Shown here in pieces: positions 2,059 through 64,000 of a stretch of DNA of 64,000 bases; positions within the stretch are counted from its first letter, which is position 1, and every line of letters starts with the position of its first letter. Made by a program: the position numbers and the translations under genes. Under the pieces are notes generated by a model. The model worked only from the letters and a program-made list of their open reading frames with translations. It ran no database searches and was not told the origin of the DNA. Origin of the DNA: a virus; IMG/VR virus record IMGVR_UViG_3300045988_159113, one strand, 5' to 3'.

Positions 2059-2084
2059 TATTATAAACTTTTAATATTTATGTC

Positions 2085-5592: not shown

Positions 5593-5595
5593 AAA

Positions 5596-7099: not shown

Positions 7100-7118
7100 A
7101 TATTAGTGTTTTATTTTA

Positions 7119-8435: not shown

Positions 8436-8436
8436 A

Positions 8437-8667: not shown

Positions 8668-8673
8668 AATTTT

Positions 8674-9267: not shown

Positions 9268-9287
9268 AATTCAAAAATTTTAAAACA

Positions 9288-9778: not shown

Positions 9779-9781
9779 AAA

Positions 9782-10609
9782 TCAAAAAATTAAAGGTTTC
9801 ATTTTCTGCATAGTGTCTTCATGTTTTAGCTTCTTCTGATAATATGAAATCATATTCTCCACTTCATCCTTCAGATAGTCACACTTGTACATAGTACCAG
9901 CACCTGTTGTTGGATCAATGTGATAGATTATGAGTTCCTTGACTTTTAGCTCTGGTTTTATTTTTGTCAACATCCAGGCATAAGTAGACACTTGTAGTTG
10001 GTACTCGTTAAAATTACAATTGTCAAATTTGTTTAATGGATACAGCATCCGTTGTGTTGTCCTTGTCTGCTGATTATAGGACGCAGCTTTTTTGTTAATC
10101 TTACTGTTAGTTTTGAAGTCAATGACAATGATATCATTGAGATCTTTAACTAGAAGGTCAACTTTACCATTTAGTCGAAAATCACCGTCCTCGTACCTGA
10201 TAGAAAATTCAGAATACGCGCCGCGAGGTAAGTCCAAATCTGAGTAGTCATTCATAAATTCAAACTTACCTCCCAGCCCGAATCGTTCCAGGGTCTGTTT
10301 GCCGCCCTTGAAGGAATCCTCCAGCTGTTTGTGGATGATAGTTCCACGGTCACAGGCGTCTTGTTTGCTTTTCTGCCACTGATCAAGTATATTCTGCTTT
10401 TCCCGATTGAAGTCTGTTTCATTTATATCATACAACATCAACAGGTCCGTGTCTATCTTATGTTTAGAAAGTACCGATTTTTTTTCAACCTACCATCTGT
10501 CTTTTGGTATCAATCTCTCGAGTGCTTTTACTCCACTCCAAAACTCCTTATCGAAGGGCGCTACAAATGAGTGAATTAAATCGGTTACATTTATATTATG
10601 TGTAGACAT
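9782..10609 (-). CDS. PD-(D/E)XK (Cas4/RecB-like) nuclease
   Basis: ATG at 10609, one in-frame TAG, then track ORF 9782..10441. Motifs GTIIHKQLE, GKVDLLV...IVIDFKT and LQVSTYAWML. Confidence 0.55.
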
Positions 10610-10645
10610 TTTTCCGTTCTCCATTTAAACATTCAACATTATAAT

Positions 10646-10879
10646 TTAATCTTTGGATGACTTACTCTGAAACTCTAACAGTTTAGATTTGTATGAGTAA
10701 TCCATACCAATTAAGGAACCAGCGAAAGTACACGTTTCACCAAATGCTATAAGTACCGAAGAGTGAATCACGCCCATTGGTGGAACTGTAAATCCAGCGA
10801 CAAGAAGCAACAGTCCAGCGGTCAATATTACAGAAGCCATGCGGAGCTGAAATCTTAGCTTCCTTTCTTTCTGATTCAT
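10646..10879 (-). CDS. small membrane protein (two hydrophobic helices)
   Basis: Intact 77-aa ORF with two hydrophobic stretches. Confidence 0.45.
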   Translation of the reverse strand: MNQKERKLRFQLRMASVILTAGLLLLVAGFTVPPMGVIHSSVLIAFGETCTFAGSLIGMDYSYKSKLLEFQSKSSKD

Positions 10880-10935
10880 ATGAAACTTAATTTTTAAAAA
10901 TTGACATATATCTTGATTGGTTTATATTCTACGCA

Positions 10936-10956
10936 ATAATACTATTATTGTTACAT
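10936..10956. promoter_or_regulatory. near-palindromic divergent late promoter box
   Basis: CAATAATACTATTATTGTTAC reads TAnTATTATTG on both strands. It lies between divergent genes starting at 10879 (-) and 10972 (+). Confidence 0.45.
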
Positions 10957-10971
10957 AAAATAGCAGCAATT

Positions 10972-11610
10972 ATGGTACATCTCTTAAAAAAGGGATCCGG
11001 CATTCATATAAAAAAATCACATGAGGGAAGATTTACGGAATATTGCGGAGGCAATGTGACAGAAGAATGCATACGGAGAGGGAAAAACTCCCCGGATCCA
11101 AAAATACGAAAACAGGCAGTCTTTGCATAGAATGCCAGAAAATTCAAACACCAAGACGGCGGCTCCATTTATGGAGCACCTTAGATATAGACAAATGGAA
11201 ATCTCTCGCAGCAATGGAAATAGCAGCAAGAGATGGCTGCGCAAAATTTCAACCAAAGCATGGAGTGGGAAAAACAGCTTGATGAAATGAAGCGCATGCA
11301 AGAATCACAGGCTCTTGGTAAAAGCATAGGAAATACTGTTGGCTCTTTAGTTGGTACCGGTATGCAAGCAATTGCACAAAATATCAGAGAAAGAAGAGCT
11401 GGTAGCGAAGAAGGAGAAGTGAAAGGAAATTCTCAACAGCCAACAGTACCATAGGCTACGACATCATATCAAATGCCATAGCTTCCAACATCATTGCAAG
11501 GAATTAACAACATGATGAGAAATCCTTTCGCAATTCCACAACAAATGCCTACTATGATGAACGGTGGCAATATAGAACGCTTAATCAGAAAAATAGACAG
11601 ACATGGATGA
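10972..11610 (+). CDS. hypothetical Q-rich protein
   Basis: ATG at 10972. Track ORFs 10948..11130 and 11233..11454 are in the same frame, joined by TAG. Ends at TGA 11608-11610. Confidence 0.5.
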
Positions 11611-12868
11611 ATTGTTCTCTACATATAAGGCCGTTGAGCCGATGCTAGTATAGGAAGAAATAGAAATCCCAGATTTAAATACAACATCAAGATATGATAC
11701 TTTTCTTGAAACATTAAATAGGTACAGAGAAGCATAGGGTCAAAAATAGCCAGAAGCATAGAAACAAGATGATAACCAAAACTGGTTCACTAATACAAAA
11801 ATAAGACAGACGACACCTTCTGTCTCAAACCTCGCAACAGCTATTGACTATACAACAAAAGACCTATAGACGATGTTGAATGAATAGGGGCTTGATAAAT
11901 ATATAAGAATAACAAGTGGATTCCGAGATCATAATGTAGGAAAAGCTGGCAACAGATCAAATCATAGAAAGAAAAACAAACACGGACATTCTATGGCTTA
12001 TGATATAGCTCCAGCATAGGGAGAAACTTTTGATTCTATATATTAGAAAATGAAGGAGAACCCTGCAATGTAGCAATGGTTATCTCAAAATGGTTTTAAT
12101 ATAAACGACGAAACAGATGCTGCAACATTAAGACGGACAGGAGGAACTGGTGCTCATTTTCATATTGGACCTGATAAGTTTAATATTAGAAAAGGATAGT
12201 CTGGTTTTGATACGTCAAATTTGTTTTCGGCATATAAAGCTGTAGAGTTACCTATTAAGCCAATCATTAAACCGGTAATTCCAAACATTGAATATAATAG
12301 TACAGGTATGCCAGATATATATATTGGTAGCAACACGCCAACTTAGCAAAGCGAATAGAAAGCTGATGATGACCAGTCGTGGTTCTCAAATACAAAACTA
12401 AGAAAAACGCCAACTGCTCCTGTAGTATTACCAAAGTAGAAAGAGAATGAGGCTGCAATAAATAGTCCAACTTTTGATTCTGATTTTCAAAAATTCGGAA
12501 CGTCAAAAATATTCTCTGATCACAAGAATTTCTGGAAACGTCTTGCATTTTCCGAATCAAGCCTAAATTCATAGGCTTCAAATAAAAGCGGAGCTTTCGG
12601 ATATTTTCAGATAATGCCACAGTCTAGAACTGGGGTTGACGTAGCATCTCAATTTAAAGATGCGGAAAAATTAATGACATCACACATGTCATTAATAAAC
12701 GACGAAGATCGCAAACTAGCACAACAAAAAGGAATAACAGAAGAAGGACTGATGGCTGGCGTTTGGCTAGGAGGTCCTGGAGGAGTAAAAAAAGCACTGA
12801 GAAGTCAGGGAAACGCAAAAGACTCGAATGGTACATCAGTGATGAGTTACATGAAAAAGTTTTCGTAA
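11603..12868 (+). CDS. cell-wall hydrolase: LAS-type zinc peptidase domain plus lytic transglycosylase domain
   Basis: ATG at 11603 (ATGGATGA overlap), TAA at 12868, 1266 nt with 14 in-frame TAG. SGFRDHN...HGHSMAYD...AHFHIG (H-x6-D ... H-x-H). ESSLNS[TAG]ASNKSGAFGYFQIMPQS is an SLT-like signature with a TAG inside it. Confidence 0.6.
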
Positions 12869-12939
12869 TAATAGATAAAACGTTTTATGAAATTTCTGAG
12901 ACAAACCCAGGAAGAAGCTTATAAATAAAATAAAAAAAA

Positions 12940-12972
12940 GTCCGAGAAATAAAACTCTCGGACTTTTTTTTT
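12940..12972. terminator. bidirectional intrinsic terminator
   Basis: GTCCGAGA / TCTCGGAC stem with an A-run before and a T9 run after, between convergent genes. Confidence 0.7.
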
Positions 12973-12992
12973 ATGTGGCAAATCTACAATCA

Positions 12993-14045
12993 TTATTTTA
13001 CATACTATCTTTCCAACGTTTTACCAGCATCAATTCTTGGTTTCTATAATACCGGAATACTGATCTCATTTCCTTTTGTATCATGAACGACTTTCTCACC
13101 AACTTGCTTCCATCCATATTCTGTTTTGAATCTATTAAGTCCATGAACTCCTCCGGGGCTTAGATTTCCATATGTAGATAAAAATTCACCTTCCGGAAAA
13201 TCTGCAGCATAGGTATCAAAAAGAAACTTCTTCTCATTTGGGCTTAACATCTGTCTCCCATCTACTCCGTGGAATGTATCAGCTGTCTTAAAATGAACGC
13301 TATGATATCCTGGCTCAAGATCATCAACCCTTTCGAAGAATGAAGGTTTTCCTTCTAGCCTGTAACGAGTCGCAGGATTCCATCCTTGATAATTACGCCA
13401 TACCTTAACCTCTGGTCCCTCTTTTATTACTCTCGTTGCTTCATATGGATACAAGGCTTGACTTACGCTTTCTGTAGTCTGTGCTCCATGCTATATTCCA
13501 GTCTCTGCTGCTTTAGCTTCTGCTTCTAAAACTTTAGAATTTATTTTTATTGCCCCATCAGCAGCTCTAACAACAGGAGCAGCTACCATAGCAACATCAA
13601 CTGCAGACTTTAATATTAGAGGATATGTGACTTTTGCAAGATCACTAGCTGATGAGTTCGGATCGTCCCATACCGCGTTTGCATGATCAACTAAACCATC
13701 AGCTCCTGAAAAAGTGTTGTATAATCCAGTCGCACCACTAGCAAATGCCATAGGACCAGGTGCAAAAGTCCAACCAAGCATATTGGCAATACCGACAAAT
13801 GGCTTGCTTCCTCTCTCCATAGCAGCGTTGAAATAACGAGCACCACGCGCCGCTTCAATCTTACGCCTCTCAGCATCAGATAACTCAGCACCCTACGGTA
13901 TCATATCACTCGATGTAGCTGGTGCTCCTATACCTGCACCTTCAGGTGTCACGGTTATCCATTCGAAATTCCCAACTCTTCCAAGTGGATTATCTGGCGT
14001 ACGTTCAACCTACTCGTATTTTATAGATTCCTTTTTCTTACTCAT
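12993..14045 (-). CDS. hypothetical structural protein
   Basis: ATG at 14045. Track ORFs 13491..13820 and 13044..13454 are in the same frame. Continues through TAG 13044 and 13005 to TAA 12993, about 20 nt before the terminator. Confidence 0.5.
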
Positions 14046-14061
14046 TGCAAAAATATTTATT

Positions 14062-14080
14062 TTGCAATTATAATATAAAA
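14062..14080 (-). promoter_or_regulatory. late promoter box
   Basis: Minus strand reads TATATTATAATTGCAAA about 17 nt upstream of ATG 14045. Same box as at 15526, 32577 and 33218. Confidence 0.45.
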
Positions 14081-14184
14081 ACCCGATGCTCTTTTCTAAG
14101 AAAGAACACCGGGCCGAATTAATTATTTAATCGTGAATGAGTTTCTGTTTTAAAGCCCGATGCTTTTTTCTAAAAACACCAGGC
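14077..14184 (-). terminator. two tandem intrinsic terminator hairpins (related sequences)
   Basis: Hairpins at 14082..14113 and 14155..14184. Mismatches on the plus strand (A-C, C-A) become G-U wobbles on the minus-strand RNA. The first is followed by U5 on the minus strand. Confidence 0.55.
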
Positions 14185-14208
14185 CGAAAGTTTTCATTAT
14201 CAATTTTT

Positions 14209-14400
14209 TCACTTATAGTATAAAACCTCATGTCCTGTAAGGCTCAGGGTTTCATATATCAACTTGATCGTTTCGGCATTATCATCCTTGGAGATCAATA
14301 TATCCTTTGGAATCATTATCCTATCGTAATGATTCAGAAACTCAACATCTGGCTACTTAGCCTGTTCAATGTCAAGTGTTACAGTTCTGATGTTTCCCAT
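14209..14400 (-). CDS. small hypothetical protein (63 aa)
   Basis: ATG at 14400 (TAATG overlap), one in-frame TAG, TGA at 14209. Confidence 0.35.
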
Positions 14401-14567
14401 TATCGTACACTTAAAGCGTTCAGATCATCTTGATAGTCAAGCCACCACTGTCTGTTTGTCCAGCCATTAGCGCGAGCCATCTCGTCAATCTCGGTTGCAC
14501 GATCAATAACACGACGCGCCTATCTCTTCAGCAACCACTCAATAAACATATAGATTTTACCTTTCAT
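14400..14567 (-). CDS. small hypothetical protein (55 aa)
   Basis: ATG at 14567 (ATGA overlap), one in-frame TAG, TAA at 14400. Confidence 0.35.
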
Positions 14568-14713
14568 GATACAATCATTGTGTTCGATTCGTACTTTCCA
14601 CTATTTACAAACTTCGTGGCCTCATCTTCCGTGTCAAATATTCTGACTTGTGTTACAAAATTCTCACCATCGAAAATCTTGCGATACACCTTGTTCTTGT
14701 CCTGGGTATACAT
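14564..14713 (-). CDS. small hypothetical protein (49 aa)
   Basis: ATG at 14713 (TAATG overlap), TGA at 14564. Confidence 0.35.
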   Translation of the reverse strand: MYTQDKNKVYRKIFDGENFVTQVRIFDTEDEATKFVNSGKYESNTMIVS

Positions 14714-15027
14714 TAACATTCACATTTTATACATTTAACAAACTTGAAATCATCATGAGAACCAGGAAGATGGCTCAGATCAGGGCGAGTAGATACAATC
14801 GTATATACCCCATTAAAAAAATAGTATAACTCAACCGTCCTCCCTACAACGTCCTCCTTACGTTGCCCGTTTGAGTTAAGCTCACAAAAAGCCTTCTCTA
14901 AGTCATCTTCCTTTATGTTGTCTCTTATGATTTCTATATCATTCTCATCAAGCTTTAATTTCTTCAGCTTCTTTTTCAAATCGCGACACTGAAACAATTT
15001 CTCGCGATATTTGAATATAGTTCCCAT
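14713..15027 (-). CDS. hypothetical protein
   Basis: Intact 104-aa ORF ending in TAA. Confidence 0.5.
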   Translation of the reverse strand: MGTIFKYREKLFQCRDLKKKLKKLKLDENDIEIIRDNIKEDDLEKAFCELNSNGQRKEDVVGRTVELYYFFNGVYTIVSTRPDLSHLPGSHDDFKFVKCIKCEC

Positions 15028-15045
15028 TCATTCGCTCATTACTAG

Positions 15046-15121
15046 TAGGGACGCCAGGATTCGAACCCGGTCCAAGAGGGTTAGAGCCTCCTGTGCAATG
15101 AACCACATACACCACATCCCT
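15046..15121 (-). tRNA. amber suppressor tRNA, anticodon CUA (reads UAG)
   Basis: Minus strand folds as a cloverleaf: acceptor AGGGATG/CGTCCCT, D stem GTGT/GCAC, anticodon stem GGAGG/CCTCT with loop CT-CTA-AC, T arm CCGGG-TTCGAAT-CCTGG, discriminator A. Confidence 0.85.
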
Positions 15122-15130
15122 ATTTAGTAA

Positions 15131-15502
15131 TCACATTCTCATATTTTCAAGATTATGAATTTTCTTTCCTATCACCGCATTCACACACTGCTTGAACTCA
15201 TTGATGCCATGACGAACGGCACCATAGTCTTCAGTAGAATCACAAAGCTCTGCAAGCTTTCTAACACCTCCATCAGTCGTCTTGTTCATAAGATCACAAG
15301 CCTCAACAAAAACATCATCATCAAGTCTTGCTATCTGCTCACGAAATTCACTGATGAACTCAGGAACACTTGGCTCCTCGGTGATCTTTACCATGTAGCT
15401 GTTGTCATCAAAATCATACTCAACAACACGATCACCACTTCTAAACTTTCCCTTCGGGTTCTTCTACGCCGCACTAAGCAGCTAACTTATCATATCCTGC
15501 AT
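15131..15502 (-). CDS. hypothetical protein
   Basis: ATG at 15502, two in-frame TAG, then track ORF 15131..15394 (372 nt). Confidence 0.45.
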
Positions 15503-15525
15503 ATTGTCATTGTTTATTGGTTACA

Positions 15526-15545
15526 TTGCAATCATAATATAAAAA
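15526..15545 (-). promoter_or_regulatory. late promoter box
   Basis: Minus strand reads TATATTATGATTGCAAT upstream of ATG 15502. Confidence 0.4.
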
Positions 15546-15601
15546 ATGCCAAAACCCAAATTTTTTGTGTTAATTTAGGTTAAGGCATATGTTAAAAAGT
15601 G

Positions 15602-15904
15602 TCACAGCGAATAAAGTATCGCTCCGATCATCATAACTACGGAATTCAAAACTCCACCTAGCGTTGTAAACAATACGTCGATCTTATCTGCTCGATAGTC
15701 TACCGCTTCTTTCACAATACCAGCAACAGCAGCAACAACAACTCCACCAAGGGAGACAGCAACGACAAGCCAACCAGTCAACCCTTCCTACATGGATAGG
15801 ATGTTTGTTATAATCGATGCTATCACGTAACCAAGAGATACATGTTCCAAAAGGTTTGTGTGCTCTTCAAAGAAAGAGCGCAACCTTTTCTTTAACTTAC
15901 TCAT
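15602..15904 (-). CDS. membrane protein (about 100 aa)
   Basis: ATG at 15904, one in-frame TAG, TGA at 15602. Hydrophobic stretches LGYVIASIITNIL, WLVVAVSLGGVVVAAVAGIV and LGGVLNSVVMMIGAILY. Confidence 0.45.
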
Positions 15905-15910
15905 TATTTA

Positions 15911-17710
15911 TTAAATTATAGTCCAACCTTTCGCGAGAGCTGCGGCTTTCTATTCGTCGCTAATCGCCCACATCGCGTTTTTCTTTAATGTTGCAGATCT
16001 TACAAGGCTTGTGCTCGCATCATCATCGCCTTTTTCTATGGTCAGATCTGTCAAGTTATCAATCAAATATGCTATACTGTCAGCATCCAAAGCTGGAAGC
16101 CAAGACGAGAAATCCCAATTGCCATGATTCAATCGCTAGATTCTTACATCTGTCAGCTTATCGCAACCATTGAATGCATTTTTTATGTTAATCCCCTCGG
16201 GCTTGACATATCGCATATCAAGCACAGGACCTATCTTGACAAGGTTATTGCAAGACTCAAAAGCCTATGGCATAAATTCTACAATAAGCAAATTATCATC
16301 AGCAAATCTATCCGTGCCATATTGCGGTATCTCTGTGATCTTGAAGCAATAATCACAGAACCACCCGATGTTCGTACTCCTGTATGCTCGCGTTTCATCA
16401 TTCACATACGCAGCGCTCCAATGAATACTCGGAAGCTCCAAGAGATTATTGCACTGTTCAAAAGCTGCTGATAGATCTCTTGCCCATGCTACCTTGTTCA
16501 TATGGATATGGCGCACCTCATGCATCCCTCCAAACATTCTATGCATAGATGATACTGCAGAAGTGTTGTTGAATGTTAATTCGTCAATATTGGTGCCACT
16601 CCAAGCATAACCGCCAGCCATGAATTCGATATCAAAATTGAAGGTCCAGTGGCCTTTCATGTCTGTATTATCCTTAAACCACGCATCGTCTGGATTCGCA
16701 TCTCCGGTAGTAAAAACTGCATAATTACTGAATACCTTAGTCTTACAATACTCTTTGAGCTACTACACAAATGCATCATTCCACATTCTGCCGGTAAACT
16801 GGACATATTCGACAGTCTCTACCTTACTCTCCGTATTATAGGAATACTTAACCAATCCATCCATGTTATCCAAAACGGGCATATAGGATCCGTTGCATTT
16901 GTGGATGATACTCTTGACGCCAGTGGACCAATCTCTAACTACAGTATCAACGATACCGTGATAGATAAGATTATCAAGATCCTTGACTCTATGATATACA
17001 AGATTCTCACCGATGTATGCATTATAGCACTCGCTCTTCGTTTTGTCAATAGGCGGTGTGAATTGCTTAGTGTGATAATCTAACCCGTCAACACTAACGA
17101 GCACATTTTGCATTTCAAGTCTCACCTAGTCTATGGTTCTTATCTTTGGCTTTATAACAACTGCTATATGATTACTGCCTACTCTATGTATAGTGACCGT
17201 GCGCTTGTCCTGGCTTATATCTGCAATACTTCCATGGCTCGTATCAACAATAAACTCAGAATCATCAAAGCGGCCATCTAAGAAATTTATAATGATGGGA
17301 TGATCACCGAAATCAAGGCATGCGTTGTCTTTATCGTCCTTAAAGTTGCTATCATTACCCCATAAGGTGATAGCTTCACACCATGGCTCATTTTTCCAGC
17401 CATTAGCCGCGAAGTTCTTGGTCATCCCTTTTGTTATATTCTTATTGCGACCGTCTTGAATATAACCCCAATAATGTGCTCCATTATTGAGATCTTTAAG
17501 AGCACCACCAGGAACACCTAAATCCCAAGGCCACCAGTAAATCCAATCGTTATTATAACAAGGAGCAAACCATAAACCGCGAACGTAATATCCGCCAGCA
17601 TCAGATGCGTATTTATACCAACTCCATAACGCATCACCCTTAGGTTTAGGTTCTGGATAAGAGAATCTCAAATGAACGACATCCTGGTTTCCTATTTTTA
17701 ACCCACTCAT
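15911..17710 (-). CDS. tail fiber / receptor-binding candidate with BspA-like leucine-rich repeats
   Basis: Track ORFs 17126..17710, 16763..17125, 16265..16660 and 15950..16132 share one frame and are joined only by TAG, including tandem TAG-TAG at 16760-16765. Repeats FEQCNNLLELPSI, FESCNNLVKIGPV and FNGCDKLTDVRI. Runs through TAG 15950 to TAA 15911. Confidence 0.55.
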
Positions 17711-17850
17711 TTGATAGCATATAAAACATTATCACTTTTTGGATCTAGTGCATCATACTCATCCTAAGAAAGTATTTGCACCTTGTCGCGGGCTGTCTAA
17801 TCACAAAGATCGTATACCTAGCCCTTTATGGTTATTTTGCTTATTTCCAT
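17707..17850 (-). CDS. small protein (47 aa) with fiber-N-terminus-like EYDAL...LYAI motif
   Basis: ATG at 17850, 3 in-frame TAG, TGA at 17707 overlapping the next ATG (ATGA). Confidence 0.35.
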
Positions 17851-17870
17851 AATGTAAAAAATTAATTCAG

Positions 17871-17894
17871 CAACAATTATAGTATTATTGTGTA
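17871..17894. promoter_or_regulatory. near-palindromic divergent late promoter box
   Basis: CAACAATTATAGTATTATTGTGTA gives TAGTATTATTG on plus and TACTATAATTG on minus. It lies between starts 17850 (-) and 17919 (+). Confidence 0.45.
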
Positions 17895-17918
17895 TAATTT
17901 TATAAATTTATATTAAAT

Positions 17919-19601
17919 ATGGCAAACGAATATAGAGCGAAATCATTCGCAGATGCTTTCAGACAAGCACGGAGAGATATCGGTAGTGGGGGGCAAGCGG
18001 TTTGGATCCGACCAAACGGCACACGCATGGTATTCAACACAAACCTCAAAGAAGAGATACCTGTAAATCAAACCGTTTATTCTCCTCTTCTTTCTAGCGA
18101 AGATGAAAGATTGGCGGAAAGAAGGTACAAAGAAGCTTTGGAATCATCAAGAAGAGCTTTGGCTTCAGAAATCGGTATTAATTTAGTACAAGGCAAAAAA
18201 GTGCCAACAAAAATGATACCATAGCTTGATGTACAAAACAAAGAGGTTGGAATATACCAAATTAATCCAAACGCAAGCTCCGAGGAAACAAGATGGATCA
18301 AAACACTTCCATAGATAGATGTGATTGCACAACGTACACATCACAAAATGAGAAAAAATTCCCAAACAGGAGAGCTTGAGTCTGCATAGGAGAATTTTTA
18401 CCCAGTTAAACCTGATTATGAAATTGGAAAAGGAAATAGTGTTCATTATAATTTCAACACAGGTGAATATGAGATGATAGATAAAAACGGAGAAATTCTC
18501 GCAACATCACCAGATGGTTCTGTTCTATCTGATCCTTCACTCTGGACTCAATCTCATAATGGAAGAAATGGAGACATCGAATAGTCAAAATAGACATTCG
18601 AATAGCAGAAAGCAGCAGAATAGATGGCCAACATGAGAAGAGACGAAGAAAATCACACAATCAATAGCCCATTACATATTCTTACAGATGAAAACGGGAA
18701 TATAGTTGTAGATAAAAATGGCAAACCTATATATAACGGATAGCTTACTACAGATCAAGTAGTAGATGGAATGAATTATGGCAAACAAATTTTCGTAGAT
18801 GCTGTTTAGAATTTTGGGCTCGATGGAGTCAATCACGCCATATTAGGCGGACTCAAAATGGCAACAGATGGAGATTATACATCAGACGATTATCTGAACG
18901 GATTCTTAGCATCCAAAGATCATGTAGGAGGAGCAGGAGACTTTTTCGAGGTAGAAGGACCAAAATCAAGATTCGCTTTGAATCTTATAAACCCAACATC
19001 ATTATTCACACTCGGGGCTACAACAAAGTTCAAATTGCCAGAGATGACTGTCGTAACAACTAAAGGATAGCCAATTCGCCTCAGTGTTCCAAATGCGCCG
19101 GCATCAATGTATAGAAGAGGAATGCAAGCGAATGAAGGAATGGGAACAATAACAAGAAATGTTGGACGAGGAGGACAAAAGTCTTGGGTCTAGCATGGAG
19201 GCAAACATGTTGCTGGTACAGGTTCACATATCGAGGTAATACCAACATAGAGTACAGGATTAATGTACACTCCTGGCGAAATTAGTATGCGACCACTCAC
19301 AACAATGACATATGATCTCTATCCAAAGAGGATATGGGAAACAAAACCAATCATACCAGCACTTAACGTGGAATATGAAGGTGGGCCAGAATCAACAGGC
19401 TATCAGTATGAAAGAATGTTAGGCAATCCTGATGAAGTAAACTCTTCGGCAGCACCAGATGTAGCAATGCCAGGAAATGTTACTGTAAACGGATCAAATG
19501 ACAAGATAAACAGAGGAAGATCAAACGGAAGAAGACTCCTCAAGAGAACAAAAGCAAGAAAATCAAGATAGGAAACAGGAAATATCGACATAAGTAATTA
19601 A
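17919..19601 (+). CDS. hypothetical virion protein (560 aa)
   Basis: Track ORFs 17919..18224, 18858..19070 and 19263..19571 share one frame. About 13 in-frame TAG. TAA at 19599-19601. Confidence 0.5.
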
Positions 19602-19603
19602 TT

Positions 19604-20131
19604 ATGTTATCAGTAGAAGAAAGATTGAGACGAAAAGACGAGCTCATCAAAAATGGCTATAAAGTAGAACGAAACGCTAGCTGGGGACCAAACCTCAATA
19701 AGATGTATATGTCTATGAAAGCCAAAACTCCAAAAAAGAAATCCTGGGCACAAAGCGTAAAAGATGAAGGTCTAATCTCTGGAACGATGGATAAAATGGG
19801 AATAACAAATCCATACGCAAAGGTAGCAGCAGAATTTACTCCGTTAATACCAGGAATCGGAAACTATATCTCAGCAGCAAATGCAATTACTGATTTAGGA
19901 CGCGGACATTTCAAAGATGCTGCGTGGAATGCATTGTATGCACTACCTGTAGCAGGAAATGTAATGAAAGGATTAGGAATGGGAGCAAAAGCTCTGAAAG
20001 GCTTGAACGCAGTTGGAAGAGTAGGCGGCATAGCACAATGGGGAGATGTAATCGGACAGACAGCAGCACCAACAATCAAAACAATAAGGGACGCATGGAA
20101 CGACCCACAAACGGAAGAATATTATGGCTAA
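19604..20131 (+). CDS. hypothetical protein, Gly/Ala-rich C-terminal half
   Basis: Intact 175-aa ORF with no TAG. Confidence 0.55.
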   Translation: MLSVEERLRRKDELIKNGYKVERNASWGPNLNKMYMSMKAKTPKKKSWAQSVKDEGLISGTMDKMGITNPYAKVAAEFTPLIPGIGNYISAANAITDLGRGHFKDAAWNALYALPVAGNVMKGLGMGAKALKGLNAVGRVGGIAQWGDVIGQTAAPTIKTIRDAWNDPQTEEYYG

Positions 20132-21026
20132 TAAAGCACAGACAACAAAAAAACTGCTTACATCAAAAGCAGGAAAGAAAGGAATCCAATGGACAGTTGG
20201 ATAGGTGAAGAAAGGAATCACCTGGCTTGGAGGAGGACAAGGTAAAGTAAATCGGAAAGCAGAATAGTATGTCGAAAAACAAGCTGAATCACTAAAGAAA
20301 GCAAAATCAGCATAGAGTAAGGCAACACGCAATCTGAATAAATCAATAGAAAGCGTGACTGGAACAAAATGGTCAAGCCGAAATGGATATCCTCAAATGA
20401 CAGGAGAATTGGCAGAAATGAAAGCTGCAAGAGATTTGCTTGCTAGAAATACAGCAAGAGAAGCAAAAGCATTCAAGAAAATGTCCGGTCTTGCAAGACA
20501 AAAAGCAGAAGACGAAGTACTTAGATCTGGACTCACACGTGCAGGGATCGGAGGCGCAGCACTACTTGCCGGTATACCTGTATATAACGCTCTGACAGAT
20601 GAACCAGAAATGTATGATGCTAGTAATCTGCAAGCAATTGAACCAGAAGTGATTGAACCCGAAACATTACCTGGATCAGGAGTAGAAAGCCTCAGATATT
20701 ACGCAAGAGATACAGACCCATACTGGAATAATGGGAACCCTATCATACAAAATTCAGATGGCACACTCTTCATAAATGGACAACAGTTCGACGATAGAGA
20801 TAAAGCCGCAGCAGCTGCAGCAGGATTCGATAATGTGTTCGATTATAAAGCGGCAAGAGCAGGACTGAGCAGCAGAGAAGAAGTTGCGGAATTACAACGG
20901 CAACTAGGATTGAAACCCGATGGACTGTTTGGAATAAATACAGAAAAAGCATACTACGATTATATGAGATCAAATCCACAAGAAGTGGCAGATCGATATA
21001 TATCTGACGGATGGATACAAGTGTAA
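20124..21026 (+). CDS. hypothetical protein with C-terminal peptidoglycan-binding-like motif
   Basis: ATG at 20124 overlaps the previous stop. 3 in-frame TAG, then track ORF 20355..21026. LQRQLGLKPDGLFGINTEKAY resembles PG_binding_1. Confidence 0.5.
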
Positions 21027-21030
21027 AAAT

Positions 21031-21060
21031 AAAAGGAGACCAGAAATGGCCTCCTTTTTT
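21031..21060. terminator. intrinsic terminator between convergent genes
   Basis: AAAAGGAGACC-AGAAA-TGGCCTCCTTTTTTT. Confidence 0.6.
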
Positions 21061-21079
21061 TATGCCCCCCCCCTGGGGT

Positions 21080-22021
21080 TTATTTACGAAAAATATTTCC
21101 TCCCCTCTTCTAATATAAAACAAACGGCTGTAAAAATTCGACTTGACCAGACTATCCAATTCTAGCACTTCCAGGATAAATCCGCTTGTTCCAAACATCT
21201 ACAAACGCAGCCTTCTACTAAGGACTAACAGCAGCCTTCCACATGTCATATAAATCCTTATTATGAACAGCCGTATTGTTTAGCTCAGTGAAAGCATTTC
21301 TCGAAAATCTTAGTGCATTACCATCTCTAGCACCCTGTCTGACAATAGCAGCATAACTGTCAGGGCTTAAACCAGATTTGTGAAGACCCTTGTCCGCCAC
21401 ATCTTCCAATAAGACTTTCACAGCACCACGATGAGAACCCTGGTTCTTCATGAAACTACCCAATGGAGCAGATGCAAAATCTCCGGATAAATAAGTACCA
21501 GGACGTACAATCTCACGAATAGTAGACCAAAAAGTACGCATGTCTTCCTTCGGAATGACATTCCCCAACTCATCTAAAACCTTACCAGTGTCCTGCTTAT
21601 ACTCAACACCAGGAGGAGTCAAAATGACATTCATCGTACCGTTCTCATATGGAGTAGCTGATAAAGTGCCCCAACCAGCCTTTCCACCATTAGATGGAGT
21701 AACACCATAACCAGGTAATACCTTACCACTAGAAGGAAGAAATACTTTCTTCCCATCCGGCATTGTTATCAAACCATCAAGAGTACGCTTCGGGCCAGAT
21801 TGAATCATATGCCTAACACCAGGAATATCACCAGGCTTCGCAATATCACGCCAAACATAACGCTTGCCATCAAATAAAAACTTGTCTGCCTTAGACTAAG
21901 TAGAAACCCATTTCTCATAATCCTGCAAAGCAGCACGCTGAAATTTGTTTAAAGAGCCATAAGCTCCCTTAGATAAACCCAAAATCTCACGAAGAGAGCG
22001 AGAAACTATTTTCGAATTCAT
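21080..22021 (-). CDS. hypothetical protein
   Basis: ATG at 22021, one TAG, then track ORF 21218..21808. The standard-code stop is a tandem TAG-TAG (21215-21220). The frame stays open to TAA 21080, next to the terminator. Confidence 0.45.
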
Positions 22022-22028
22022 TTTTTTT

Positions 22029-22048
22029 CGCAATTTTAGTATTTATTT
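22029..22048 (-). promoter_or_regulatory. late promoter box (degenerate)
   Basis: Minus strand reads AAATACTAAAATTGCGAAAA just upstream of ATG 22021. Confidence 0.3.
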
Positions 22049-26951: not shown

Positions 26952-26972
26952 CTTTTGTATCATATTGTCATA

Positions 26973-28500: not shown

Positions 28501-28513
28501 AAAAGATAGAGAT

Positions 28514-37937: not shown

Positions 37938-37949
37938 CAAGAATAAGTT

Positions 37950-40019: not shown

Positions 40020-40100
40020 ATGATCGTTTTATTTGTTATAGCAATTATTTTGCTGGAGTTCTACCTATTGATTAATATGGAGGACGAATTGAGGAAATGA
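40020..40100 (+). CDS. small hydrophobic peptide (26 aa) with acidic end
   Basis: MIVLFVIAIILLEFYLLINMEDELRK. ATGA overlap with the sigma gene start. Confidence 0.3.
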   Translation: MIVLFVIAIILLEFYLLINMEDELRK

Positions 40101-40774
40101 GAAAGTTAAAGATCGGGAACATGCGTTCCTTTGCTCGTGACGATTGGTGGCTTCATGAGTCTAACAAATACAAACCAGTTTCTGCGGAGGAAGAGGCAAG
40201 CCTCAGTAGGGATAAGTTGATAGAGCACAACCTCCGCTTCGCTATTAGCGTTGCCAAGCAGTATGCCTATACCAACATCCCTATCGAGGACCTCATCCAA
40301 TACGCGAATATTGGTCTTGTCAAGGCTGCTGATCTATGGGATCCCACGCGTGGATTCAAGTTCATCAGCTATGCTGTCTGGTGGATCAGGCAAACTATCA
40401 TGGCGAATGTCAAAAATTCTATCGTTAGTATGCCTATCAACCAGTGGCGAGCTCTTAACACAGAACATAGAGAGCTCGAAAAGAAAAGTCAGGAGGATGA
40501 ATTCCTTTATGACTCTTGTGTCCCAAGAAAGGTTGGCTTTGAGGATTGGATGGTTGGTTCTTATGAAGAAGAAAAAGGGACTATGTACACCTTCGAGCAG
40601 CTGATTTCCAAGCTCACGAAAAGAGAGCAGGATATCATCAGGAAAAGGTATGTAGATAACCGGACCCAATGCGACATTGCCGAGAGTATGGGATGCACAC
40701 GTGAGAATGTGCGAAGTATTGAGTCAAAAGCTTTAAGAAAGCTAAGGCGAATGTTAAAACATCGAGATTTATGA
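40097..40774 (+). CDS. sigma-70 family RNA polymerase sigma factor
   Basis: Region 2: LIEHNLRFAISVAKQY...DLIQYANIGLVKAADLWDPTRGFKFISYAVWWIRQTI. Region 4: LTKREQDIIRKRY...DIAESMGCTRENVRSIESKALRKLRRML. Confidence 0.85.
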   Translation: MRKLKIGNMRSFARDDWWLHESNKYKPVSAEEEASLSRDKLIEHNLRFAISVAKQYAYTNIPIEDLIQYANIGLVKAADLWDPTRGFKFISYAVWWIRQTIMANVKNSIVSMPINQWRALNTEHRELEKKSQEDEFLYDSCVPRKVGFEDWMVGSYEEEKGTMYTFEQLISKLTKREQDIIRKRYVDNRTQCDIAESMGCTRENVRSIESKALRKLRRMLKHRDL

Positions 40775-43088: not shown

Positions 43089-43544
43089 ATGAATAAAGGC
43101 GAGATTTATCAGAATGGCTTCTACCTGATGGTGGGGGCCATTCTCGGTATTATTGGGACCTGTACTTTCAACTCTGTGGCTACACAGCAAGAGGTCCTGA
43201 TAAAAACCGAGGTGAAAAGGGACACGATCGTTGCCATGAGGCCAGAGCTTAATGAGCAGAACCTGAAAGAGAAGCTCGCAAGATTGCCGCACCATGACGT
43301 GGTGTTTAAACAGGCAAAGCTTGAGTCGAGACTTGGCAAGTCAAAAGTATATAAGAGAACAAACAACCTATTTGGCTTGAGAAAAAACGGAGCCTATCGA
43401 TCTTATGATCACTGGACGGAGTGCGTGGATGATTACGAACGCCTTATCTCGTCCAGATATAAAGGCGGGTGTTATTACACCTTTCTCGAGAGAATAGGCT
43501 ATGCAGAAGATCCAAATTACATTTCTAAATTAAAAATGATATGA
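43089..43544 (+). CDS. membrane-anchored glucosaminidase-like cell-wall hydrolase
   Basis: N-terminal hydrophobic helix (FYLMVGAILGIIGTCTF). FKQAKLESRLGKSKVYKRTNNLFGLRK...YDHWTECVDDYERLISSRY follows the glucosaminidase (FlgJ-type) pattern. Confidence 0.5.
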   Translation: MNKGEIYQNGFYLMVGAILGIIGTCTFNSVATQQEVLIKTEVKRDTIVAMRPELNEQNLKEKLARLPHHDVVFKQAKLESRLGKSKVYKRTNNLFGLRKNGAYRSYDHWTECVDDYERLISSRYKGGCYYTFLERIGYAEDPNYISKLKMI

Positions 43545-61328: not shown

Positions 61329-61346
61329 TAAATAGTATTATTGAAA
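61329..61346 (+). promoter_or_regulatory. late-type promoter box
   Basis: AAATAGTATTATTGAAAC. Same TAGTATTATTG core as at 10941 and 17881. First intergenic gap after the family F array. Confidence 0.45.
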
Positions 61347-61482
61347 CGCTAACAAAAAAGTAATGCTATGAGAAAAATTAAAAATGCTATCAAATGGGTT
61401 TCTAGGCGTATGTCTACGAATTCCTACTGGCTTCCAACGGGAACCTTCCCGTGCTGAAGCCAGCAGCAAAGATTAATTTTTA

Positions 61483-62160
61483 ATGGTACGAGACATTTTT
61501 ATCAAAACATGTGAGGATGGTATCGATGATTTGATATCAATCCCCGATACAGCGGAAATATATGAACAGTTCCAATATGCCGATGGATCCTTTGAGTATA
61601 TAATCGTTGACGATTACAACAGCGAGAATATATCCCAAATGATGAAATACCGCAACGATTATGATGTTATATCTTACAATAACACATACGTCATGATCAT
61701 TGTTAACGCCATCGATATCACAGGGTGCGATATAAAGAAGGAACAGTTCAAATTTCCAACTGCCTATGTTCGGTTTTATAAAGAGAATCCGCACATATGG
61801 GAACTAGCAAAAGGGCGGTTTGGTGTTGACCTGTCAGGGATGGATGAGTACACGGACGATCAGCTGGAGTTTCTAAAAGACAACGTTACATTTAATATTG
61901 CCTTTATGAAAATCAGGAAATCTTCCGATGTGCATTTCCTCGTTGATAAGGTACACATAAAAACAAAAAGCGGATCTCCAAAGTTCGCTGTAGAGTATAA
62001 GAAGATTGGGTTTTGTTCCGCTTTCGATACTCAGTACGATCTGACCGGGGTTTCAAATAAGGCTGACACTGTCTATTCTGAATTTTGCACAAAAGAAGAA
62101 TATGATGATGCGCTATGCCGAGTGTTAACAGTCTTGGGAGTTAAGAAGTTTGAGGTATGA
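61483..62160 (+). CDS. hypothetical protein
   Basis: Intact 225-aa ORF. Confidence 0.55.
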   Translation: MVRDIFIKTCEDGIDDLISIPDTAEIYEQFQYADGSFEYIIVDDYNSENISQMMKYRNDYDVISYNNTYVMIIVNAIDITGCDIKKEQFKFPTAYVRFYKENPHIWELAKGRFGVDLSGMDEYTDDQLEFLKDNVTFNIAFMKIRKSSDVHFLVDKVHIKTKSGSPKFAVEYKKIGFCSAFDTQYDLTGVSNKADTVYSEFCTKEEYDDALCRVLTVLGVKKFEV

Positions 62161-62525
62161 TGAAATTGATATGCCATGGTTATTCACGTAACGCGTTGGT
62201 TATCTCTTTCTACCTAGACGGAAAACGAATTATGGACGGAATCTATATCTTCGAAATGGAAGCTTTCAAGGTTCTCCGGATGTCAGACGTATGCGTTGAG
62301 GTGTATAAAGAGATCATGGATGCTTTAGTGAAAGATGGCTTTTTCGAAAATAGGTTCCGGATATTGTGCAAAGATAGAACTTTAAAACAAAAAATCAGGG
62401 AGTATGAGCGAGAAAAATCTGATAGAGCAAAGGCAAGAGGCAAACTTGCGCTTGCTGGAGATTATTCAGGATTATTTGGAGAAGTACCCAAGCTTACGCT
62501 TCGGCCAGGCATTGATCAACCTTAA
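62157..62525 (+). CDS. hypothetical protein (3' end uncertain)
   Basis: Intact 122-aa ORF. Its last 122 nt overlap the next ORF in another frame. Confidence 0.4.
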   Translation: MMKLICHGYSRNALVISFYLDGKRIMDGIYIFEMEAFKVLRMSDVCVEVYKEIMDALVKDGFFENRFRILCKDRTLKQKIREYEREKSDRAKARGKLALAGDYSGLFGEVPKLTLRPGIDQP

Positions 62526-62616
62526 CATACTTGAACCAACAGACAACACGGCCGTTGTAAAAGATCCATATTACGACGAACCGATGGCAATGTTGGATAG
62601 AATAAAACAAGAATGA
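62404..62616 (+). CDS. hypothetical protein
   Basis: Intact 70-aa ORF. ...LRFGQALINL...DPYYDEP... looks like a small conserved phage protein. Confidence 0.45.
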   Translation: MSEKNLIEQRQEANLRLLEIIQDYLEKYPSLRFGQALINLNILEPTDNTAVVKDPYYDEPMAMLDRIKQE

Positions 62617-63227
62617 AAGTATATCGAATACAACAGAAGAATTTTAATTCCATAACGCAGTCAACACTTAGTGTAGAAGATGGGACGAAGTTTCAATTTA
62701 TACCAACAGGAAAAGAGGACATGTACAATGTCGCCTATATCACTGATGGCAGTAAAGAGAACGTCATAAGGTGTAAAAGATTAGTGAACTCTTTTCAGTT
62801 TCTACTTCCTTATGATAAGCTCCTTATCATTCTCAAGGACTTCATGGGCAAGCCGTTCGAGGAATCGACGGAGATAAAGATCAATGATTTCTATCTCTCT
62901 TGTTTCCCAAAGGGGCATCCAGAAAGACCGCTTGAGTTCTATCATGTGCTTGACTTTACAGGAACCGCGTTCAAGGTAATACGTGTAAGGATAACGGATC
63001 CATTAAACAAGATATATAATCCTCGGATTGAGTACACAACAATCGCACCGCTTACTTTGTTCAGAAGCCAGACGGGAATAGCTAGAGGTCCAGAGACTGC
63101 GCTGTTTACTGACTTCATGAAAAAAGAAGATTTCGAGCGTTATATGGATATCATAACTCTTACACTGAAAGGAGACACCAATCGTTTAATGACAAATGAA
63201 ATACTTTACAATTCAGGAGCTGACTAA
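62613..63227 (+). CDS. hypothetical protein
   Basis: Intact 204-aa ORF. Confidence 0.55.
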   Translation: MKVYRIQQKNFNSITQSTLSVEDGTKFQFIPTGKEDMYNVAYITDGSKENVIRCKRLVNSFQFLLPYDKLLIILKDFMGKPFEESTEIKINDFYLSCFPKGHPERPLEFYHVLDFTGTAFKVIRVRITDPLNKIYNPRIEYTTIAPLTLFRSQTGIARGPETALFTDFMKKEDFERYMDIITLTLKGDTNRLMTNEILYNSGAD

Positions 63228-63651
63228 TTCATAGACAGCTAAAGCAAAGGGTCTTGATAATACTCCGGACCCACAACAGGAGCACAATCTCCGCAGGCTT
63301 ATCGAGGAGCTGCTCGATCCATTACGTGAAGCTTGGGGTAAACCGATAAAGGTAACCTCCGGGTTCCGTGGTTTCGCACTTAATAAATGCGTTAAAGGAT
63401 CAAAAAGTTCGGCTCATTGTATAGGAGCAGCTGCGGATCTTGTACCTGTAGATGGGAAGATGCCACAATTCAAAAGATTCGTGAGAGACTGGTTGACTGA
63501 AAACAATATCAAGTTTGACCAGTATATAGATGAGAGAAGTGGAAACAGTGAGTGGGTACATCTGGGACTTATCAACCAGTCAGGAAGACAGAGGAGACAA
63601 TTTCTGATGTATCGCAACAAGACGTATGTATCATTGAAGGATATATGTTAA
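63196..63651 (+). CDS. endolysin, peptidase M15 (zinc DD-/LD-peptidase fold) with one in-frame TAG
   Basis: ATG at 63196. MKYFTIQELTNS[TAG 63232]TAKAKGLDNTP...SGFRG...SSAHCIGAAADL...EWVHLG. The track shows only the part after an internal Met (63460..63651). Confidence 0.75.
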
Positions 63652-64000
63652 AAATCGGAACGCATGATTCAGCGACAGGCGAGAAAGCCATGTCGTGGTG
63701 GATGAAGCTCTTGACTCCTTTTTGGAAGACACAGAGCAAGACAATCAAAGAGCAGTATGAGGCAGGCTGCCGTATGTTTGACATTAGAGTCAAGAAGGTA
63801 GGCCGCGAGTATTACTGCGCTCATGGTTTGTTTGTAACAGAGAAGACAGCGCACGAGATCTTCACAGAGCTTGACAATCTCGGGGGATGCTATGTTGCTG
63901 TCACTTGGGAAGGAAAAATGACAACGGACGAGGAGAAGGCTTGTTTCAAAAGTTGGTATCAGAGAGTAAGGAAGAAATACAAAAACACATTCTGGGGGCC
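63645..64000 (+). CDS. PI-PLC X-domain-like phosphodiesterase (partial, runs off window)
   Basis: ATG at 63645 (ATGTTAA overlap). Open to the window end. MLKIGTHDSATG...GCRMFDIRV resembles the GTHDS / R.FD.R signature. Confidence 0.4.
   Translation, partial: MLKIGTHDSATGEKAMSWWMKLLTPFWKTQSKTIKEQYEAGCRMFDIRVKKVGREYYCAHGLFVTEKTAHEIFTELDNLGGCYVAVTWEGKMTTDEEKACFKSWYQRVRKKYKNTFWG

What the first reader, a model, noticed from the sequence alone, without database searches (positions are those of the whole stretch)
63196..63651. Endolysin gated by a single TAG at codon 13
The M15 peptidase gene (SAHCIGAAADL and WVHLG zinc-site motifs) begins at ATG 63196, and its 13th codon is TAG (63232). Without suppression only a 12-residue peptide would be made. 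The supplied track therefore shows only a C-terminal fragment starting at an internal Met, downstream of the SAHCIGAAAD motif. The gene lies outside the main recoded block, downstream of a late-type promoter box at 61329. A single early TAG in the lysis enzyme would tie cell-wall degradation to accumulation of the suppressor tRNA, a mechanism already proposed for recoded phages.
Basis: partly seen in the sequence, partly recalled or inferred. Interest (0 to 1): 0.7.

Follow-up and report, generated by a model that had tools for sequence, protein, structure and literature searches.

The report
Phage cell-wall enzyme locked by one amber codon
A gut phage that reads the stop codon TAG as glutamine in its late genes keeps a single TAG at codon 13 of a cell-wall-cutting enzyme that sits among normally coded genes, so the enzyme can only be made once the phage's own suppressor tRNA is present; this is a clean example of a mechanism already proposed for such phages.

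Summary
An ORF from ATG 63196 to TAA 63651 encodes a 151-residue M15/LAS zinc peptidase of the phage endolysin family, and its 13th codon is TAG (63232-63234). TAG is a sense codon in this phage. The window carries a tRNA with a CUA anticodon (15045-15121, minus strand). The late block (1-22 kb: portal, terminase, transglycosylase) holds 104 in-frame TAGs, and relatives mostly have CAA/CAG where these TAGs lie.

The peptidase is the only one of 55 plus-strand genes between 22 and 64 kb with a TAG inside conserved sequence. The next 6 kb in sister contigs is also TAG-free.

The TAG is present in at least 10 independent assemblies of the phage. Three diverged orthologs (69-78% identity) keep it at the same codon, although synonymous sites are saturated and the residue at that position varies across the family. 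Two other lysin lineages carry TAGs at different codons.

The most likely role is a translational lock that depends on the suppressor tRNA. This matches Borges et al. (2021/22), so it is a new member of a known kind.

Caveats:
- A second candidate lysin without TAG lies at 43089-43544.
- No holin is adjacent.
- Timing was not measured.

The parts
63196..63651 (+). Full-length M15/LAS zinc peptidase (endolysin-family) gene, 151 codons plus TAA. Predicted zinc ligands are His74 (63415-17), Asp81 (63436-38) and His122 (63559-61).
63232..63234 (+). In-frame TAG at codon 13, read as a sense codon (probably Gln).
63460..63651 (+). Standard-code ORF fragment (63 aa, starting at Met89). It is an annotation artefact and lacks two of the three zinc ligands.
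15045..15121 (-). Phage tRNA with anticodon CUA (amber suppressor). It lies inside a minus-strand late operon, 14 nt after the preceding ORF.
1..22042 (.). Recoded late block: portal, split terminase large subunit, M15-like plus SLT protein and others. It holds 104 in-frame TAGs in 5939 codons.
61332..61343 (+). Promoter-like motif ATAGTATTATTG at the head of the gene cluster that contains the peptidase. It is identical to motifs at 10934-10945 (-) and 17879-17890 (+), which lie in front of TAG-rich operons.
61368..61457 (+). Conserved 29-codon small ORF, 25 nt after the motif. It is the first ORF of the presumed transcription unit.
61483..63227 (+). TAG-free genes upstream in the same cluster (61483-62160, 62157-62525 and/or 62404-62616, 62613-63227). 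Functions are unknown. The last one overlaps the peptidase start by 32 nt.
63645..64000 (+). Start of the downstream TAG-free gene (189 aa in L003; no family match). It overlaps the peptidase stop by 7 nt and is syntenic in the diverged relative L037.
40097..40774 (+). Phage sigma-70 family factor in standard code. It may read the promoter motif, but this is inference only.
43089..43544 (+). Second candidate lysin: an N-terminal hydrophobic segment followed by a glucosaminidase domain, with no TAG. It weakens the claim that the TAG alone gates lysis.

Best explanation
The gene at 63196-63651 encodes a functional 151-residue LAS-type zinc peptidase of the phage endolysin family.

Its 13th codon, UAG, is terminated by host release factor 1 in a cell that lacks the phage suppressor, which leaves a 12-residue peptide. 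Once the phage tRNA-CUA (15045-15121) has been made, UAG is decoded as an amino acid, most likely Gln.

The neighbouring genes use standard code, so this one codon makes synthesis of the enzyme conditional on the switch of code. It acts as a translational lock in addition to any transcriptional control. It would block enzyme made from leaky or read-through transcripts of the long co-directional gene array.

Shown here:
- The TAG is real and fixed in the sampled population.
- Both sides of it evolve as protein-coding sequence in one frame.
- TAG is a sense codon in this genome and a suppressor tRNA is present.
- The TAG is isolated among TAG-free genes and is conserved at the same codon in diverged orthologs.

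Inferred:
- That the inserted residue is Gln.
- That the tRNA appears late.
- That selection acts on the TAG itself.
- That the effect is on the timing or safety of cell-wall degradation.
For: 1. Suppressor and recoding. A tRNA-CUA is found by ARAGORN and by Rfam (47 bits). TAG makes up 31.5% of Gln-like codons in the late block but occurs once internally among 285 such codons in the plus-strand block (Fisher p = 6e-31).

2. TAG most likely means Gln. In portal alignments with relatives, two of which have no TAG in their portal, the codons opposite a TAG are CAA/CAG in 34 of 98 cases. The background Gln frequency is 6%. Standard-code lysin relatives have CAG at position 13.

3. Isolation. The peptidase is the only one of 55 plus-strand genes (11,345 codons) with a TAG inside conserved sequence. 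The next 6 kb in L003 and L004 is TAG-free. The same holds for 10.8 kb around the ortholog in L037.

4. Conservation.
- TAG is at codon 13 in L033 (78% identity), L037 (73%) and L039/L040 (69%).
- Among 88 columns with the same degenerate residue in all four sequences, only 6 keep the same codon, and codon 13 is one of them.
- The flanking Ser12 and Thr14 codons vary synonymously.
- Synonymous sites are saturated, while pN is 0.0-0.27 upstream of the TAG (codons 2-12) and 0.10-0.22 downstream of it.
- Position 13 takes at least 10 different residues across the family, most often Asp.

5. Recurrence. Other lysin lineages carry TAG at codons 64, 76 and 143 (L035) and at codon 78 (L048 and L058).

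6. No local recoding signal. No RNA structure around the TAG is conserved, which points to a global suppressor rather than context-specific read-through.

7. Efficiency. A late protein with 16 TAGs (7119-8441) implies efficient suppression late in infection. A single TAG would then act as an on/off condition rather than a strong attenuator (inference).

8. Precedent. Borges et al. found lysis genes preferentially recoded in crAss-like and Agate phages and proposed control of lysis timing.
Against: - Endolysins without an export signal are normally harmless in the cytoplasm until a holin acts. Locking the endolysin is therefore not obviously needed to time lysis.
- No holin or spanin lies near the gene.
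- A second muralytic candidate with a membrane-anchor-like N-terminus and no TAG lies at 43089-43544. Small membrane proteins that could be holins are TAG-free or unverified.
- The cluster carries the same promoter-like motif as the late operons, so transcription alone might already restrict expression.
- The conservation argument rests on four lineages. The empirical chance of full codon conservation is about 0.07. The lineages share ancestry.
- No expression, proteomic or activity data exist for this uncultured phage.
Confidence: 0.6

Rival explanations
1. Neutral by-product. In a phage with an efficient amber suppressor, TAG is simply a third Gln codon. One CAG-to-TAG change drifted to fixation in a late-transcribed gene. 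It has no regulatory role and persists through shared ancestry.
For: The cluster has the same promoter-like motif as the recoded operons. One TAG among 9 Gln-like codons is not unusual at the late-block rate (P of at most 1 TAG = 0.17). Position 13 tolerates many residues. The conservation statistic is only about 0.07.
Against: The other genes of the same cluster have 0 TAG among 14 Gln-like codons (P = 0.005 at the late-block rate), and the next 6 kb is TAG-free. Synonymous sites are saturated, yet four lineages keep TAG at a site where the residue is free to vary. Two other lysin lineages carry TAGs at different codons.
Confidence: 0.27
2. Dose control rather than timing. Incomplete suppression at UAG lowers the yield of the enzyme to a tolerable level throughout late infection.
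For: Suppressor tRNAs compete with release factor 1 (general knowledge). An early TAG wastes little translation when termination wins.
Against: Late structural proteins carry up to 16 TAGs, so suppression per codon must be efficient and a single TAG would reduce yield only slightly (inference). Nothing was measured.
Confidence: 0.1
3. The TAG is a true stop, so the gene is a pseudogene or only the 63-residue C-terminal fragment is made. Alternatively, the TAG is an assembly error.
For: Standard-code gene callers report only the fragment or truncated proteins (P0006 and P0102).
Against: The TAG is identical in at least 10 assemblies. Purifying selection acts on both sides of the TAG in one frame across four lineages. 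The fragment lacks His74 and Asp81 and matches no family. A suppressor tRNA and 104 TAGs in essential late genes are present.
Confidence: 0.02

Closest known systems
Preferentially recoded lysis genes of TAG-recoded crAss-like phages and TGA-recoded Agate phages (Borges et al., bioRxiv 10.1101/2021.08.26.457843; read)
   Same: A phage suppressor tRNA is present. Early genes use standard code. In-frame reassigned stops occur in late and lysis genes. The proposed role is to block premature production of lytic proteins.
   Different: In those crAss-like phages the lysis genes (a lysozyme-type amidase and a spanin) lie inside the recoded structural block and carry a statistical excess of TAGs. Here the enzyme is an M15 peptidase with a single, position-conserved TAG. 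It is embedded among standard-code genes about 41 kb from the recoded block, with no lysis cassette around it.
Code-15 (TAG to Gln) crAss-like phages, including the large Zeta group (Yutin et al. 2021, PMC7886860; Peters et al. 2022, PMC9523058, abstract)
   Same: Human-gut source. Contigs of 175-197 kb. TAG reassignment confined to late genes. A suppressor tRNA is present. The terminase is split, which may reflect an intron. The portal is distantly similar to crAss-like portals (about 23% identity).
   Different: Membership of the Zeta group was not tested by phylogeny. In the parts read here, those papers do not single out one-codon locks in isolated genes.
M15/LAS phage endolysins such as the Bacteroides phage B124-14 endolysin, LysB4 and LysECD7, and the Streptomyces albus zinc DD-peptidase 1LBU
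   Same: Same family match, the His/Asp/His zinc site and the same fold.
   Different: None of the standard-code homologs examined has an in-frame stop. Substrate specificity and activity were not tested.
Laboratory amber mutants in phage lysis genes, such as lambda Sam7, which lyse only in suppressor hosts (own knowledge, not checked here)
   Same: An amber codon in a lysis-pathway gene makes its function conditional on a suppressor tRNA.
   Different: Here the amber codon is natural and conserved, and the phage supplies the suppressor itself.

Membership tests
Peptidase M15 / LAS zinc metallopeptidase (Pfam PF08291; PHROG 894 endolysin) | Profile match above the curated threshold that covers the domain from its N-terminus | tested here: met
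   PF08291: 58.4 bits against a cut-off of 23.2, residues 2-99 on profile positions 1-91. phrog_894: E = 3.7e-36, residues 1-143.
Peptidase M15 / LAS zinc metallopeptidase (Pfam PF08291; PHROG 894 endolysin) | His-x6-Asp ... His zinc-binding residues | tested here: met
   His74 and Asp81 align with the SRHMYGHAADL motif of 1LBU. His74 and Asp81 are invariant and His122 nearly invariant in 66 homologs.
Peptidase M15 / LAS zinc metallopeptidase (Pfam PF08291; PHROG 894 endolysin) | LAS fold | tested here: met
   AlphaFold2 model of P0002 (98% identical to the window's enzyme) with pLDDT 93.7. Foldseek best hits are 1LBU (E = 2e-5), LdcB, LysB4, LysECD7, VanY and hedgehog N-terminal domains.
Peptidase M15 / LAS zinc metallopeptidase (Pfam PF08291; PHROG 894 endolysin) | Peptidoglycan-cleaving activity and a role as the lysis enzyme (a holin partner or lysis cassette) | tested here: not met
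   Activity cannot be tested here. No holin or spanin was recognised within the cluster or 6 kb downstream. A second candidate lysin exists at 43089-43544.
Stop-codon-recoded (code 15) phage with recoded late and lysis genes | In-frame TAGs in conserved late genes, with early genes in standard code | tested here: met
   Portal has 12 TAGs and terminase 12, giving 104 TAGs in the late block, against 1 internal TAG in 55 plus-strand genes.
Stop-codon-recoded (code 15) phage with recoded late and lysis genes | Phage-encoded suppressor tRNA with anticodon CUA | tested here: met
   15045-15121 (-), found by ARAGORN and Rfam tRNA at 47 bits.
Stop-codon-recoded (code 15) phage with recoded late and lysis genes | TAG decoded as glutamine | tested here: met
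   This is comparative evidence only. CAA/CAG lie opposite TAG in 34 of 98 aligned codons against 6% background. CAG is at lysin position 13 in standard-code relatives. The charging identity of the tRNA was not determined, and alignment to the phage tRNA-Gln(UUG) was uninformative.
Stop-codon-recoded (code 15) phage with recoded late and lysis genes | Temporal switch: the suppressor appears after early genes and recoded proteins only late | not testable with these tools
   Only indirect evidence. The tRNA lies in a minus-strand operon downstream of a promoter-like motif shared with late operons and with the lysin cluster.
Crassvirales-like phages, Zeta group | Portal and terminase phylogeny within the group, plus the signature gene set | tested here: inconclusive
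   The portal is about 23% identical to crAss-like portals, and phrog_6547 and phrog_6681 match. Contig sizes are 175-197 kb. No tree was built and signature genes were not checked.
Context-dependent read-through (pyrrolysine- or selenocysteine-like recoding) | A conserved RNA element next to the stop codon | tested here: not met
   RNAalifold on four orthologs predicts 0 pairs around the TAG. ARAGORN's 'Pyl' label reflects only the anticodon.

The most novel reading that the evidence does not exclude
Selection maintains the amber codon itself, not the residue it encodes, at one site of a muralytic enzyme that sits among standard-code genes. This would be a one-codon translational AND-gate, preserved through saturation of synonymous sites. 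Two other lineages of the same enzyme family also carry TAGs, at different codons. If true, it would be the simplest natural case of code reassignment used as a single-gene switch, and a single TAG-to-CAG change could test it.
Probability: 0.45. Interest if true: 0.6.

Novelty: new member of a known kind. Interest (0 to 1): 0.45.

Why it matters
The idea that phages use stop-codon reassignment to hold back lytic functions rests mainly on statistical enrichment of recoded stops in lysis genes. This locus reduces the idea to one codon in one small, well-understood enzyme. The standard-code neighbours serve as internal controls, and diverged orthologs keep the same codon. A direct test is therefore possible: compare TAG with CAG, with and without the tRNA-CUA.

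There is also a practical point. Standard-code gene callers truncate this enzyme or miss its active site. Several database entries for its orthologs are truncated in this way.

Tried and rejected
- Megablast of 52-64 kb against GenBank phages found no match.
- The sigma-70 promoter and terminator scan of 60.5-64 kb gave no more hits than shuffled sequence. A TAGACA-18-GATAAT match that overlaps the TAG is judged to be chance.
- The base after the TAG does not differ between TAG and CAA/CAG codons in late genes.
- A test for enrichment of Gln codons next to TAG was not discriminating.
- Aligning the suppressor tRNA with the phage tRNA-Gln(UUG) did not reveal its identity.
- No RNA structure around the TAG is conserved.
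- Holin candidates have no family support: 10646-10879, 15602-15904, 28101-28319 and 28427-28750.
- Two related partial genomes, MT835470.1 and MT835539.1, contain no ortholog of the lysin, the glucosaminidase or the sigma factor. No standard-code sister lysin could therefore be compared.
- A fusion with the upstream ORF by frameshift was rejected. The product starts exactly like free-standing homologs.
- TAGs in two other plus-strand ORFs were rejected as internal. In 25035-25775 the TAG precedes the likely start. In 26675-27013 the TAG is the likely stop.

Full report
**Observation.** ATG lies at 63196, the 13th codon is TAG at 63232-63234, and the frame stays open to TAA at 63649-63651. No in-frame ATG, GTG or TTG occurs after the TAG until Met89 at 63460, so standard-code ORF finding yields only a 63-residue fragment. 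With Gln at position 13 the 151-residue product matches Pfam Peptidase_M15_3 from residue 2 (58.4 bits against a cut-off of 23.2). The fragment matches nothing. PHROG 894, annotated endolysin, matches from residue 1 (E = 4e-36). At this composition the chance of 151 random codons without TAA or TGA is about 0.002.

**The enzyme.**
- tblastn finds 279 phage records. Most are Bacteroides and Prevotella phages and crAss-like phages, they are often annotated as endolysin, and the listed best hits align from residue 1.
- In an alignment of 66 homologs E8, S12, A15, H74 and D81 are invariant, and Y3, F4, T14 and H122 are nearly so.
- The only solved structure found by sequence is the Streptomyces zinc DD-peptidase 1LBU. 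Its SRHMYGHAADL zinc motif aligns with SAHCIGAAADL.
- An AlphaFold2 model has mean pLDDT 93.7, with 94-96 over residues 1-20. It was built on P0002, which is 98% identical to the window's enzyme.
- Foldseek returns LAS-fold enzymes: 1LBU, LdcB, LysB4, LysECD7 and VanY.
- The N-terminal 12 residues and position 13 are therefore part of the domain. A product starting at Met89 would lack two of the three zinc ligands.

**The genome reads TAG as a sense codon in late genes.**
- ARAGORN finds a tRNA with anticodon CUA at 15045-15121 on the minus strand, and Rfam confirms a tRNA there.
- Long ORFs between 1 and 22 kb contain 5-16 in-frame TAGs each.
- These ORFs include the portal, a terminase large subunit split into two ORFs, and a transglycosylase-containing protein.
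- In 17 late genes TAG occurs 104 times in 5939 codons, which is 31.5% of Gln-like codons.
- I aligned the portal gene with three relatives at the DNA level. Two of them have no TAG in their portal. Opposite a TAG, the other sequences have CAA or CAG in 34 of 98 cases, against a background Gln frequency of 6%. This supports TAG = Gln, as published for crAss-like phages.
- The portal is about 23% identical to crAss-like portals, and sister contigs are 117-197 kb from human gut. This fits a large crAss-like phage, possibly of the Zeta group, but I did not test membership.

**The peptidase is an isolated TAG-bearing gene.**
- From 22 to 64 kb almost all genes are on the plus strand.
- Of 55 genes (11,345 codons) five ORFs contain a TAG.
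- Two TAGs lie 3-5 codons before the next stop and are probably the real stops. One precedes the likely start codon, and one is the likely stop of a 77-residue protein. Only the peptidase has a TAG inside conserved sequence.
- The contrast with the late block is extreme (Fisher p = 6e-31).
- The other genes of the same cluster have no TAG among 14 Gln-like codons (P = 0.005 at the late-block rate).
- The 6 kb downstream is also TAG-free in the sister contigs L003 and L004. That stretch encodes ATP-grasp, Peptidase_C26 and COOH-NH2 ligase proteins.

**The TAG is fixed and conserved.**
- Five IMG/VR contigs and six metagenome contigs of the same phage carry it; one contig appears in both sets. 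A pattern search that allowed TAG, CAA or CAG found no near-identical copy with CAA or CAG.
- Three diverged orthologs keep TAG at exactly codon 13: L033 (78% identity), L037 (73%) and L039/L040 (69%). Gene callers had truncated two of them.
- Only 6 of the 88 columns that share a degenerate residue in all four sequences keep the same codon. Codon 13 is one of them, while the neighbouring Ser12 and Thr14 codons vary synonymously.
- Synonymous sites are saturated. pN is 0.0-0.27 for codons 2-12 and 0.10-0.22 for codons 14-88 and 89-151, so both sides of the TAG are translated in one frame.
- Position 13 is variable across the family (Asp, Glu, Ala, Gln, Thr, Ser and others). The conservation is therefore not explained by a need for Gln.
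- In L037 the ortholog is again the only TAG-bearing gene in 10.8 kb. Its neighbour is only 25% identical to the window's.
- Other lysin lineages have TAGs elsewhere: codons 64, 76 and 143 in L035 and codon 78 in L048 and L058, which come from 126-156 kb contigs.
- No RNA structure around the TAG is conserved.

**Transcription context.**
- At up to one mismatch it occurs seven times against 0.63 expected.
- Exact or palindromic copies lie in the divergent region at 10.9 kb and at 17879-17890, 29 nt before the ATG of a gene with 13 TAGs.
- One-mismatch copies lie 8 nt before tRNA-Lys (32581) and at 33221.
- The copy at 61332 lies 25 nt before a conserved 29-codon ORF that heads the cluster.
- The suppressor tRNA lies in the minus-strand operon that starts at the 17.9 kb divergent region.
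- A phage sigma-70 family factor is encoded in standard code at 40097-40774.
- One model consistent with these facts is that early standard-code genes include the sigma factor. The sigma factor would switch on motif-bearing promoters, which yield the suppressor tRNA, the late mRNAs and the lysin-cluster mRNA. The TAG would then add a second, translational condition. This chain is inference, because no expression data exist.

**Caveats.**
- The enzyme has no export signal, and such endolysins normally wait for a holin.
- No holin or spanin is adjacent.
- A second candidate lysin lies at 43089-43544. It has an N-terminal hydrophobic segment and a glucosaminidase domain (58 bits against a cut-off of 30), and it has no TAG.
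- Small membrane proteins that could be holins have no family support. One of them, at 15602-15904, carries one TAG.
- The claim that this TAG ties cell-wall degradation to the suppressor is therefore plausible but unproven.

**Comparison and verdict.** Borges et al. reported that lysis genes are preferentially recoded in crAss-like and Agate phages and proposed that recoding prevents premature lytic gene expression. This locus fits that proposal. It differs in three ways: there is a single position-conserved TAG, the enzyme family is different, and the gene lies among standard-code genes far from the structural block. I rate it a new member of a known kind. The structural reading, in which the full-length enzyme requires amber suppression, is very likely right. 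The regulatory reading gets about 0.6.

Noticed in passing
window 47903-61255 (+): Tandem array of at least 13 paralogous genes of about 290-350 aa each, 25-46% identical to one another and with overlapping ends. They share a C-terminal motif (...GKWYIKGD...G.K.R.GVFPECDSKEE...). There is no Pfam match for the one tested, and none has an internal TAG.
   Followed up: partly
window 43089-43544 (+): Second stand-alone muralytic candidate: an N-terminal Gly/Ala/Thr-rich hydrophobic segment (signal-anchor-like) followed by a glucosaminidase domain (PF01832, 58 bits). It has no in-frame TAG.
   Followed up: partly
window 40097-40774 (+): Phage-encoded sigma-70 family factor (Sigma70_r2 59 bits, Sigma70_r4 62.5 bits) in the standard-code block.
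   Followed up: partly
window 61368-61457 (+); L037 about 811-900: Conserved 29-residue small ORF (MRKIKNAIKWVSRRMSTNSYWLPTGTFPC in the window, MRTIKNALVRFSKRLSTNNFWLPTCTFPC in L037). It overlaps a conserved hairpin (CTGGCTTC...GAAGCCAG) and heads a cluster that continues into ATP-grasp, Peptidase_C26 and COOH-NH2 ligase genes. The neighbouring protein compared (62613-63227 against its L037 counterpart) is only about 25% identical.
   Followed up: partly
window 3113-4447 and 4606-5595 (-): The terminase large subunit is split into two ORFs that match phrog_6681 positions 332-734 and 49-308, with a 158-nt gap between them. This could be an intron or a split gene.
   Followed up: no
window 11603-12868 (+): Late protein with 14 in-frame TAGs. 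It combines an M15-like motif (ITSGFR...H...D) with a C-terminal SLT transglycosylase domain, and is probably a virion-associated cell-wall hydrolase.
   Followed up: partly
window 26906-26908, about 49638-49640, about 58234-58236 (+): Three standard-code genes appear to end at TAG, each with another in-frame stop 2-35 codons later. These would act as back-up stops once the suppressor is active.
   Followed up: partly
window 15602-15904 (-): 100-residue protein with three predicted membrane segments and one TAG (codon 39). It lies two genes upstream of the suppressor tRNA in the same operon. It resembles a holin in size and topology only and has no family match.
   Followed up: partly
window 35373-39975 (+): Several paralogous hexapeptide-repeat (left-handed beta-helix) proteins that produce 18-nt periodic DNA repeats. 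Further tandem paralog sets lie at 33.5-35 kb and 37.4-39.1 kb.
   Followed up: no
L062, L064 versus L063 (GenBank MT838543.1, MT835470.1, MT835539.1): Portal genes 55-66% identical to the window's have 0, 0 and 28 in-frame TAGs respectively, so the code differs among relatives. MT835539.1 also carries a tRNA with anticodon UUA.
   Followed up: partly
protein P0001 (99% identical to the window's enzyme): This variant has Asp instead of the zinc-ligand His122 (WVDLG). It is either an inactive allele or a sequencing error.
   Followed up: no
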